A stretch of DNA of 64,000 nt, from the NCBI RefSeq assembly GCF_009914755.1, contig NC_060943.1, one strand, 5' to 3'. The stretch is from the human T2T-CHM13v2.0 reference genome, Homo sapiens. The notes beneath the pieces were generated by a model, which saw nothing but the letters and a program-made list of their open reading frames with translations, searched no databases and was not told where the DNA came from. A program made the position numbers and the translations under genes. Below, piece by piece: positions 52,140 through 54,013 of the stretch; position 1 is the first letter of the stretch, and each line of letters starts with the position of its first letter.

Positions 52140-52506
52140 TAGAAGGATTTCCTGGGAGATGGGGAGGGAGGAGTGTTGACATCAGCTAGGGCTGGGGCTG
52201 GAATGGGGAGGGGACACTTTCTGAACTCCTCTTCCCTACCCACCCCATTGCCTAGCAGTGAGGACCTCGTCTGGGCACCCGGTGCAGGTGTAGCTGGTGT
52301 GCAGTTGCTCTCACAGTTTAAGGAGGCCGGATGTGGCAGGCACATGGTCAGAAAGTGGGGCTGCAGGCTATCCATGGTCATCTTGGAGATTCTGGTCAGG
52401 GAGGAGCTGACCATGTCACCAGAGATGAAGGTGCCCCGCTGCTCGTAAACCATGACCCTGTAGATTTTACCGTTGAAGGCCAGCAAGCTCGGCTGCAGGT
52501 TCTGAT

Positions 52507-53849
52507 TGTGAAAGAAAAATCAATCTTGGGGCTCCTAAATCACTAAACTAAAGGAAAAAGTCAAGCTGGCAACTGCTTAGGGCAAACCTGCCTCCCATTC
52601 TATTCAAAGTCACCCCTCTGGCCAGGCAGCGTGGTGGCTCATGCCTATAATCCCAGCACTTTGGGAGGCTGAGGCTGGTGGTTAGCCGGGCCTGGTGGTG
52701 CATGCCTGTAATCTCAGCTACTTGGGAGGCTGAGGCAGGAGAATCACTTGAACCCGGGTGGTGGAGGTTGCAGTGAGCCAAGATCATGCCATTACACTCC
52801 AGCCTGGGTGACAAGAGGGAAAGTCCCTCTCAAAAAACAAAAAACAAGGGCCGGGCGCGGTGGCTCATGCCTATAATCCTAGCACTTTGGGAGGCCGAGG
52901 TGGGCGGATCATGAGGTCAGGAGATTGAGATCATCTTGGCCAACATGGTGAAACCCCGTCTCTACTAAAAATACAAAAAAATTAGCCAGGCGTGGTGGCA
53001 GGCGCCTGTAGTCCCAGCTACTTGGGAGGCTGAGGCAAGAGAATGGCGTGAACCCAGAAGGCGGAGCTTGCAGTGAGCAGAGATCACGCCACTGCACTCC
53101 AGCCTGGGCTACAGAGTAAGACTCCGTCTCAAAAAAAAAAAAAAAAAAACCCACAAAAAACAAAAAACAACAAGAACAAAGTCCCCACCTGCTCACTGAG
53201 ATACCTGCATATCTGATTGGCCTCTTTGGAGAGGCTAATCAGAAACTCAAAAGAATTCAAGCATTTGTCTCTTATCTACCTATGACCTGGAAGACCCTTC
53301 CCTGTTTCCAGTTGTCCCTCCTTTCCAGACCGAACCAATGTTCATCTTGCATATGTTGATCTCATGTCTCCCTAAAATGTATAAAACCAAGCTGTGCTCT
53401 GACCACCCTTGGGCACATGTCATCAGGATCTCCTGAGACTGTGTCACATATACGTGTTCTCAACCTTGGCAAAATAAACTTTCTAAATTAACTGATGGCC
53501 GGGCACAGTGGCTCACGCCTGTAATCCCAGCACTTTGGGAGGCTGAGGCGGGTGAATCACCTGAGGTCAGGGGTTAGAGACCAGCCTGGCCAACATGGCG
53601 AAACCTCATCTCTACTAAAAATACAAAAATTAGCCAGGTGTGGTGGCACATGCCTGTAATCCCATCTACTCAGGAGGCTGAGGCAGGAGAATTGCTTGAA
53701 TTCAAGAGGCGGAGGTTGCAGTGAGCTGAGATCGCACCACTGCACTCTAGCCTGGGGAATAGAGTGAGACTCCGTCTCAAAAAAAAAAGAAAAGTAAAAA
53801 ATAAAAAACTAAATTCACTGAGACCCGCCTCTGATATTTGGGGTTCACA
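52507..53849 (+). mobile_element. MER4A1-like ERV1 solo LTR interrupted by Alus
   Basis: TGTGAAAGAAAAATCAATCTTGGGG...CAAAATAAACTTTCTAAATTAACTGA...GGGGTTCACA; family name from memory. Confidence 0.8.
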
Positions 53850-53889
53850 TGGACATGAATCATCTCTCCCAGGCTGATCTGCAGGGCTC

Positions 53890-54013
53890 TGTAACTGCCC
53901 AGTGGGTTCACTTTGTCCCCTGCCCAGATAGAATGGATGTATCAAGACAGGAGAATTGCAACAAAGAGTTTAATTCATGCAGAGCTGGATGAACGGGAGA
54001 CTGGAGTTTTATT
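53890..54013 (-). mobile_element. LTR8-family 3' end fragment
   Basis: TGTAACTGCCCAGTGGGTTCAC...GGGAGACTGGAGTTTTATT is the reverse complement of the LTR8 3' end as I recall it. Confidence 0.65.

What the first reader, a model, noticed from the sequence alone, without database searches (positions are those of the whole stretch)
52498..53895. An LTR inserted inside the fossil PLPP exon; removing it restores the reading frame
A MER4A1-like LTR (52507-53849, itself carrying Alus) splits the exon 29 nt after its acceptor. Removing the LTR plus 4 nt (the usual ERV1 TSD length; flanks TGAT/TGGA are diverged) joins CAT GTC CA + G AAC CTG in frame and gives exactly the length needed for the gap-free PLPP alignment. 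An LTR8-like fragment starts 8 nt upstream of the acceptor CAG, where the polypyrimidine tract should be. These insertions could date the gene loss (inference).
Basis: partly seen in the sequence, partly recalled or inferred. Interest (0 to 1): 0.7.

Follow-up and report, generated by a model that had tools for sequence, protein, structure and literature searches.

The report
Retroviral relic inside a dead gene
A leftover retroviral end-repeat sits inside an exon of an unannotated, broken human gene, likely the fourth member of the lipid phosphate phosphatase family (predicted whole in mouse lemur), but it likely landed after the gene was already dead, and removing it does not repair the exon.

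Summary
A solo ERV1-type LTR (52507-53849, three Alus inside) splits a fossil PLPP-family exon 29 nt after its acceptor. Related solo copies have 4-bp target duplications (8 of 16 perfect, 4 more at 3/4). Removing 4 nt beyond the LTR gives a gap-free match to orthologue models, including mouse lemur and colugo. The exon is still not open: 280 nt against 281, with a second -1 frameshift near 52300. The host is an unannotated unitary pseudogene (58145-51448, minus strand). It groups with mammalian 'PLPP3-like' models and most likely with fish ppap2d, not PLPP1 or PLPP2; PLPP3 is not rejected. Four coding exons survive, all damaged; three were not found. Two J-type Alu monomers in the next exon look older (11-13% non-CpG divergence) than the LTR (about 6%), so the LTR probably entered a dead gene (about 75%). 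It gives a minimum age for the loss, not its cause. All 10 placental orthologue models lack the catalytic SGH motif. A TE in a pseudogene exon is ordinary; the missing PLPP family member is the modestly new part.

The parts
58000..58500 (.). CpG-island-like stretch over the fossil start codon
   Evidence: GC 0.65, CpG o/e 0.82; function not tested
58030..58145 (-). Fossil coding exon A (starts at ATG); 116 nt, one -1 frameshift; donor reads AT instead of GT
   Evidence: profile score 46 vs reversed-sequence null 19; frames and length; donor lesion inferred from orthologue exon ends
56568..56711 (-). Fossil exon B, 5' part; two frameshifts; no AG at the expected acceptor
   Evidence: score 63 vs null 27; three-frame reading; acceptor place inferred
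55979..56567 (-). Two Alu dimers (S-type by nearer consensus) inside exon B, with an 11-nt duplication
   Evidence: duplication copies at 56578 and 55978; 6 of 97 and 6 of 96 differences to S against 11 and 13 of about 98 to J
55942..55967 (-). Fossil exon B, 3' part, with GT donor
53890..54013 (.). 124-bp terminal remnant of a second LTR (LTR8-like, name recalled), ending 8 nt before the acceptor CAG
   Evidence: 14 of 14 copies share the end; the rest of the roughly 720-bp element is not in the window (8 copies tried)
53850..53878 (-). Fossil exon C, first 29 nt (acceptor CAG at 53881-53879); includes one copy of the presumed 4-bp target duplication (53850-53853)
52507..53849 (+). Solo ERV1-type LTR (MER4-group; MER4A1 recalled), about 445 bp of LTR plus Alus, antisense to the fossil gene
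   Evidence: 3540 first-look candidates in the genome, best copies 85-88% identical; ends placed
52621..53178 (+). Two Alus nested in the LTR
53497..53810 (+). Third Alu nested in the LTR
52503..52506 (+). Other copy of the presumed 4-bp target duplication (2 of 4 match)
52252..52502 (-). Fossil exon C, 3' part; -1 frameshift near 52300; GC donor that is likely ancestral
   Evidence: PDB PLPP3/1/2 hits E 1.9e-7 to 4.7e-6; 49-56% identity to orthologue models; frameshift; donor
52140..52151 (-). Fossil exon D, 5' piece
51508..52139 (+). Alu stack inside exon D: two J-type left monomers (about 51508-51635 and 51650-51825) and an S-type dimer; the target motif occurs three times (51495, 51637, 52141)
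51448..51493 (-). Fossil exon D, 3' piece, with SEH in place of the catalytic SGH
   Evidence: score 78 vs null 32

Best explanation
A retroviral solo LTR sits 29 nt into an exon of an unannotated, broken human gene that is likely the orthologue of fish ppap2d, the fourth PLPP family member, and it likely arrived after the gene was already dead. Shown: the LTR's ends, its family's 4-bp target duplication, the in-frame junction, a further frameshift in the same exon, damage in all four surviving exons, three exons not found, and no second copy in the human genome search. Inferred mechanism: an ERV1 provirus integrated antisense into the exon, duplicating 4 bp; its two LTRs recombined to a solo LTR; the duplication then drifted to 2 of 4 and three Alus entered the LTR. 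Inferred order: the gene was lost after the split from lemurs; J-type Alu monomers entered the next exon first; the LTRs and S-type Alus came later as tolerated insertions.
For: TSD and ends. Junction. Orthologues, including full-length models from Microcebus (338 aa) and Cynocephalus (287 aa). Intron read-through models (P0010, P0012) align to the human introns too, which argues for orthology. Tree: fossil inside the placental group 100/100; that group plus reptile, amphibian and fish 'like' proteins against PLPP1-3 at 94/98; PLPP1 and PLPP2 origins rejected (p-AU 0.014, 0.013). No other human copy. Ages, non-CpG: LTR terminal branch 0.062 +/- 0.012, and one 5'/3' LTR pair of the family differs by 0.106. 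Monomers differ from a J consensus at 25 of 191 sites (13%), or 21 of 187 (11%) without two shared positions; Fisher p 0.007 and 0.049 against the LTR. Published order: AluJo 334, LTR8 352, FLAM_C 358, MER4A1 371, AluSx 391 (PMC1914374 supplement). Fossil differs at 23 of 81 ancestral residues, lemur at 6.
Against: The dating is not decisive. The protein-decay test gave P 0.06-0.11 under a fair null and 0.22-0.33 under a generous one; at the 46 invariant sites P was 0.10-0.28. Three-point ages for the monomers were 0.059 and 0.087 with errors near 0.03, against copies picked for likeness to one of them. The J consensus rests on 9 elements, and half the monomer-monomer distance is only 0.083. 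A PLPP3 origin is not rejected (p-AU 0.138). Synteny and non-human DNA could not be examined. Intact orthologues are predicted models, not shown to be expressed.
Confidence: 0.72

Rival explanations
1. The LTR (or the LTR8-like element at the acceptor) was the first, inactivating hit in a still functional gene, and everything else followed.
For: It sits in a coding exon; the protein-decay test does not reject death at the LTR's age (P 0.06-0.33); Alu monomers were still inserting on the anthropoid stem (PMC5059674), so both events may share one branch.
Against: The monomers in exon D are about twice as diverged; J-type elements precede MER4A1 in the published order; the LTR is one of at least ten lesions, so its prior is low.
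Confidence: 0.17
2. There was no 4-bp duplication: the flanks are unrelated and the in-frame fit is chance or the result of a small indel.
For: Only 2 of 4 bases match; 1, 4, 7 or 10 nt all restore frame.
Against: 12 of 16 solo copies show at least 3 of 4, none 5 of 5, and two others also show 2 of 4; 4 nt is the only gap-free solution against lemur, colugo, deer and armadillo models.
Confidence: 0.05
3. The host is an amniote or mammalian duplicate of PLPP3 rather than the ppap2d ohnologue.
For: Databases name most relatives 'PLPP3-like'; AU test does not reject it (p 0.138); the placental branch is long.
Against: Best trees join it to reptile, amphibian and fish 'like' proteins, including eel 'type 2D', apart from PLPP1-3 (87/83 and 94/98); it shares the N-terminal extension of that group.
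Confidence: 0.1

Closest known systems
Fish ppap2d and the reptile, amphibian and mammalian 'phospholipid phosphatase 3-like' models
   Same: Same clade in both trees; gap-free exon; 49-56% identity to mammalian models over the exon. PMC12284397 (passages) lists PLPP1/2/3/'PPAD2D' as one paralogon family.
   Different: The human copy is broken in every surviving exon and has no row in the RefSeq table supplied.
Human PLPP1, PLPP2, PLPP3
   Same: Same exon boundaries for exons C and D; 38-41% identity over part of exon C.
   Different: They keep the SGH motif and a GT donor; the fossil has SEH and a GC donor and lies in another clade.
Primate unitary pseudogenes such as GUCY2D-type GC-D (PMC1964805, abstract only)
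   Same: Intact in lemur, dead in higher primates.
   Different: GC-D is intact in mouse and studied; no murid model of this gene appeared among the 120 of 224 hits listed, and tarsier status is unknown.
MER4-group ERV1 solo LTRs (MER4A1 recalled)
   Same: TG...CA ends, 4-bp duplication, thousands of candidates in the genome.
   Different: About 449 bp in the copies measured against 472 bp for MER4A1; subfamily not tested.
PLPPR pseudophosphatases
   Same: Changed catalytic motifs; PLPPRs are held to lack LPA phosphatase activity (PMC9520309, one passage).
   Different: A separate lineage; loss of activity in the placental orthologues is predicted from sequence only.

Membership tests
ERV1 solo LTR (MER4 group) | TG...CA termini shared with dispersed copies | tested here: met
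ERV1 solo LTR (MER4 group) | 4-bp target-site duplication | tested here: inconclusive
   family length 4 bp (8 of 16 solo copies perfect); this copy 2 of 4; supported indirectly by the gap-free junction
ERV1 solo LTR (MER4 group) | Related copies flank internal proviral sequence | tested here: met
   7 of 29 copies have a purine-tract-like flank, 5 a shared primer-site-like flank, sorted by eye; L011 and L030 lie 10.2 kb apart on one strand
MER4A1 and LTR8 subfamilies | Best match to the library consensus | not testable with these tools
   no Repbase or Dfam; names recalled
PLPP (PAP2) family | Sequence similarity and shared exon boundaries | tested here: met
   PDB hits, human paralogue exons; Pfam gave 0 hits on the two fragments
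PLPP (PAP2) family | Catalytic motifs C1, C2 (SGH), C3 | tested here: not met
   fossil: C1 altered, SEH at C2, C3 exon not found; SGH in 0 of 10 placental and 6 of 6 non-mammalian orthologue models
ppap2d orthogroup | Clade with fish ppap2d apart from PLPP1-3 | tested here: inconclusive
   best tree 94/98, just under the star threshold; PLPP3 origin not rejected
ppap2d orthogroup | Conserved synteny | not testable with these tools
   no other vertebrate genome held
Unitary pseudogene | Disabled, exon-intron structure at its own locus | tested here: met
Unitary pseudogene | No intact copy elsewhere in the genome | tested here: met
   lemur protein finds only this locus, PLPP1-3 and weaker relatives, 14 matches of 26 candidates
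Unitary pseudogene | Functional orthologue in other species | tested here: inconclusive
   full-length predicted models in lemur, colugo, kangaroo rat and deer; expression not testable

The most novel reading that the evidence does not exclude
The fourth PLPP ohnologue turned into a non-catalytic, PLPPR-like lipid-binding protein on the placental stem (SGH lost in 10 of 10 models), survived in lemurs, colugos, some rodents and ruminants, and died early in haplorhine primates; its undescribed human relic holds a stack of dated insertions that fixes the order of the loss.
Probability: 0.4. Interest if true: 0.55.

Novelty: new member of a known kind. Interest (0 to 1): 0.36.

Why it matters
The LTR alone is ordinary. 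Its host is a human gene loss that the supplied RefSeq table does not list and that my searches did not find in print. [quoted passage not shown] It would complete the PLPP family history, correct many 'PLPP3-like' labels, and point to a predicted pseudophosphatase in other mammals. The nested insertions make the date of loss testable in existing primate alignments.

Tried and rejected
Pfam on two fragments: 0 families. Word-index search with the 87-aa fragment: 0 of 31 candidates. ESM Atlas and earlier findings gave no result. Orthologue exons 2, 5 and 6 were sought in 36000-64000 with a frameshift-aware profile: best scores 33, 32, 17 against nulls 34, 33, 21, and genome-wide; not found, so deletion is inferred, not shown. 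A plus-strand stretch near 51074 resembling exon D scored 32.8 against a null of 31.8: chance. The GC donor of exon C was first taken for a lesion, then rejected: in 8 orthologue read-through models the next residue is Q, P, R or L, which needs GC in 3 and allows GT in only 1. Three-point dating of short elements was too noisy. Absence of stop codons in exons C-D does not discriminate (P 0.28-0.63). No simian or tarsier model appeared (120 of 224 hits shown) or 31 (13 hits); absence from these lists is weak evidence. PMC10250217, PMC2289818 and the GenNA preprint (passages) added nothing on this locus.

Full report
The observation. The block 52507-53849 is a dispersed repeat with 3540 first-look candidates in the human genome; the best copies are 85-88% identical. 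Aligning its ends to 29 copies places them at TGTGA and TCACA. I sorted those 29 by eye: 7 have a purine-tract-like flank and 5 a primer-site-like flank (proviral ends), 1 was misplaced, 16 look solo. Of the 16, eight have a perfect 4-bp duplication, four 3 of 4, two 2 of 4, two less; none has 5 of 5. The window's copy has TGAT/TGGA, 2 of 4. It holds three Alus. On the minus strand 29 nt of exon lie between the acceptor CAG and the LTR. A second LTR-like element ends 8 nt before that CAG; 14 of 14 other copies share the end, but only 124 bp remain and the rest is not in the window. The names MER4A1 and LTR8 are recalled. Copy lengths (428-456 bp in 27 of 29) are shorter than the 472 bp of MER4A1 in the supplement of PMC1914374.

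The frame claim. The piece after the LTR matches PLPP3, PLPP1 and PLPP2 structures (E 1.9e-7 to 4.7e-6) and mammalian models much better (49-56% from residue 2). Of 0-10 nt removed beyond the LTR, 4 nt scores best against lemur, colugo, deer and armadillo models and is gap-free. But the rejoined exon is 280 nt, not 281: a 1-nt loss near 52300 shifts its last 16 codons. So the junction is restored and the exon is not.

The host gene. One search names the relatives 'phospholipid phosphatase 3-like' (or 1- or 2-like) in Microcebus (338 aa), Cynocephalus, Dipodomys, Thomomys, deer, sheep, cattle, armadillo, sloth and a beaked whale, with reptile, amphibian and fish forms, including eel 'phosphatidic acid phosphatase type 2D'. 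Profiles from these found four exons in the window (scores 46, 63, 215, 78 against nulls 19, 27, 34, 32) and missed three. Exon A (58145-58030) has a frameshift and no GT donor. Exon B (56711-55942) has two frameshifts and two Alus. Exon C has the LTR and a frameshift. Exon D (52151-51448) is split by an Alu stack with its target motif three times. Read-through models match the human introns as well. The lemur protein finds no other copy in the human genome. In trees of 33 and 19 rows (14 rows dropped for speed in the second) the fossil lies within the placental group at 100/100, on a branch of 0.58 against 0.18-0.20 for lemur. That group joins the reptile, amphibian and fish proteins apart from PLPP1-3 (87/83 and 94/98). 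PLPP1 and PLPP2 origins are rejected; PLPP3 is not (p-AU 0.138). PMC12284397 (passages) treats PLPP1/2/3/'PPAD2D' as one paralogon family. SGH is present in 6 of 6 non-mammalian and 0 of 10 placental orthologue models, so the mammalian protein is predicted to be non-catalytic, as PLPPRs are held to be (PMC9520309, one passage).

Order of events. Without CpG sites the LTR's own branch is 0.062 +/- 0.012 over 427 sites, and one 5'/3' pair of the family differs by 0.106. In a pool of 243 kb, S-type Alu arms average 0.061 (64 arms) and J-type 0.103 (9 arms); 76 of 150 arms were left unclassified. The two monomers in exon D differ from the J consensus at 12 of 93 and 13 of 98 sites: p 0.007 against the LTR, or 0.049 without two positions they share. 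They may be two insertions or one old duplication; half their distance is 0.083. Published order: AluJo 334, LTR8 352, FLAM_C 358 (broad), MER4A1 371, AluSx 391 (PMC1914374, passages and supplement rows). Of 6,919 human monomers absent from tarsier, 6,324 were fixed on the anthropoid stem (PMC5059674, passages); FLAMs also mark the tarsier-anthropoid stem (PMC3639448, passages). At 46 invariant sites 9 changed, compatible with death at the LTR's age. I put about 75% on the LTR having landed in a dead gene, lost on the haplorhine or anthropoid stem (inference).

Mechanism. Shown: ends, family duplication length, junction, lesions. Inferred from retroviral biology: antisense integration with a 4-bp duplication, collapse to a solo LTR, later Alu insertions. 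Inferred: a deletion removed most of the second LTR and perhaps the missing exon upstream of exon C.

Novelty. A TE in a pseudogene exon and a primate unitary pseudogene are known kinds (for example GC-D, PMC1964805, abstract). The locus has no row in the RefSeq table supplied. Nine literature searches found no description: 'ppap2d' is in 4 papers (2 read as passages, 2 seen as listings, none pointing to a human relic); 'unitary pseudogenes' + 'PPAP2' + 'primates' in 0; the TOGA2 preprint's main text has no PLPP or PPAP2 (PMC5753468 passages, served only for family names). GENCODE, subscription journals and bioRxiv supplements, including TOGA2's tables, could not be seen and may list it.

Verdict. 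Real insertion, correct junction, overstated repair, probably not the cause of death. The lasting result is a likely ppap2d unitary pseudogene. New member of a known kind; interest 0.36.

Noticed in passing
window 54750-55180: A roughly 400-bp insertion between two perfect 18-nt direct repeats (54750 and 55163); it looks like a truncated SVA (name recalled), so a young insertion in the fossil gene's intron.
   Followed up: partly
window 58000-58500: The dead gene's start still lies in a CpG-island-like stretch (o/e 0.82), whereas its exon C has decayed to 0.35; it may be an orphan island with regulatory use.
   Followed up: partly
window 57525-57958: Degenerate G-rich repeats of about 77-80 nt spacing in the first intron of the fossil (families D14, D17).
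   Followed up: no
window 51495-52153: One 13-14-nt target motif occurs three times, around two similar Alu monomers: repeated insertion at one site or an old tandem duplication.
   Followed up: partly
L011 and L030 (G000:C8:143785596-143796116): Two LTRs of the same family 10.2 kb apart on one strand, likely the ends of one provirus; 10.6% apart at non-CpG sites.
   Followed up: partly
P0001-P0022, P0187-P0191: Many mammalian orthologue models (whales, bison, deer, unnamed ones) are short or read through introns, which suggests repeated losses or mis-annotation at the GC donor.
   Followed up: no
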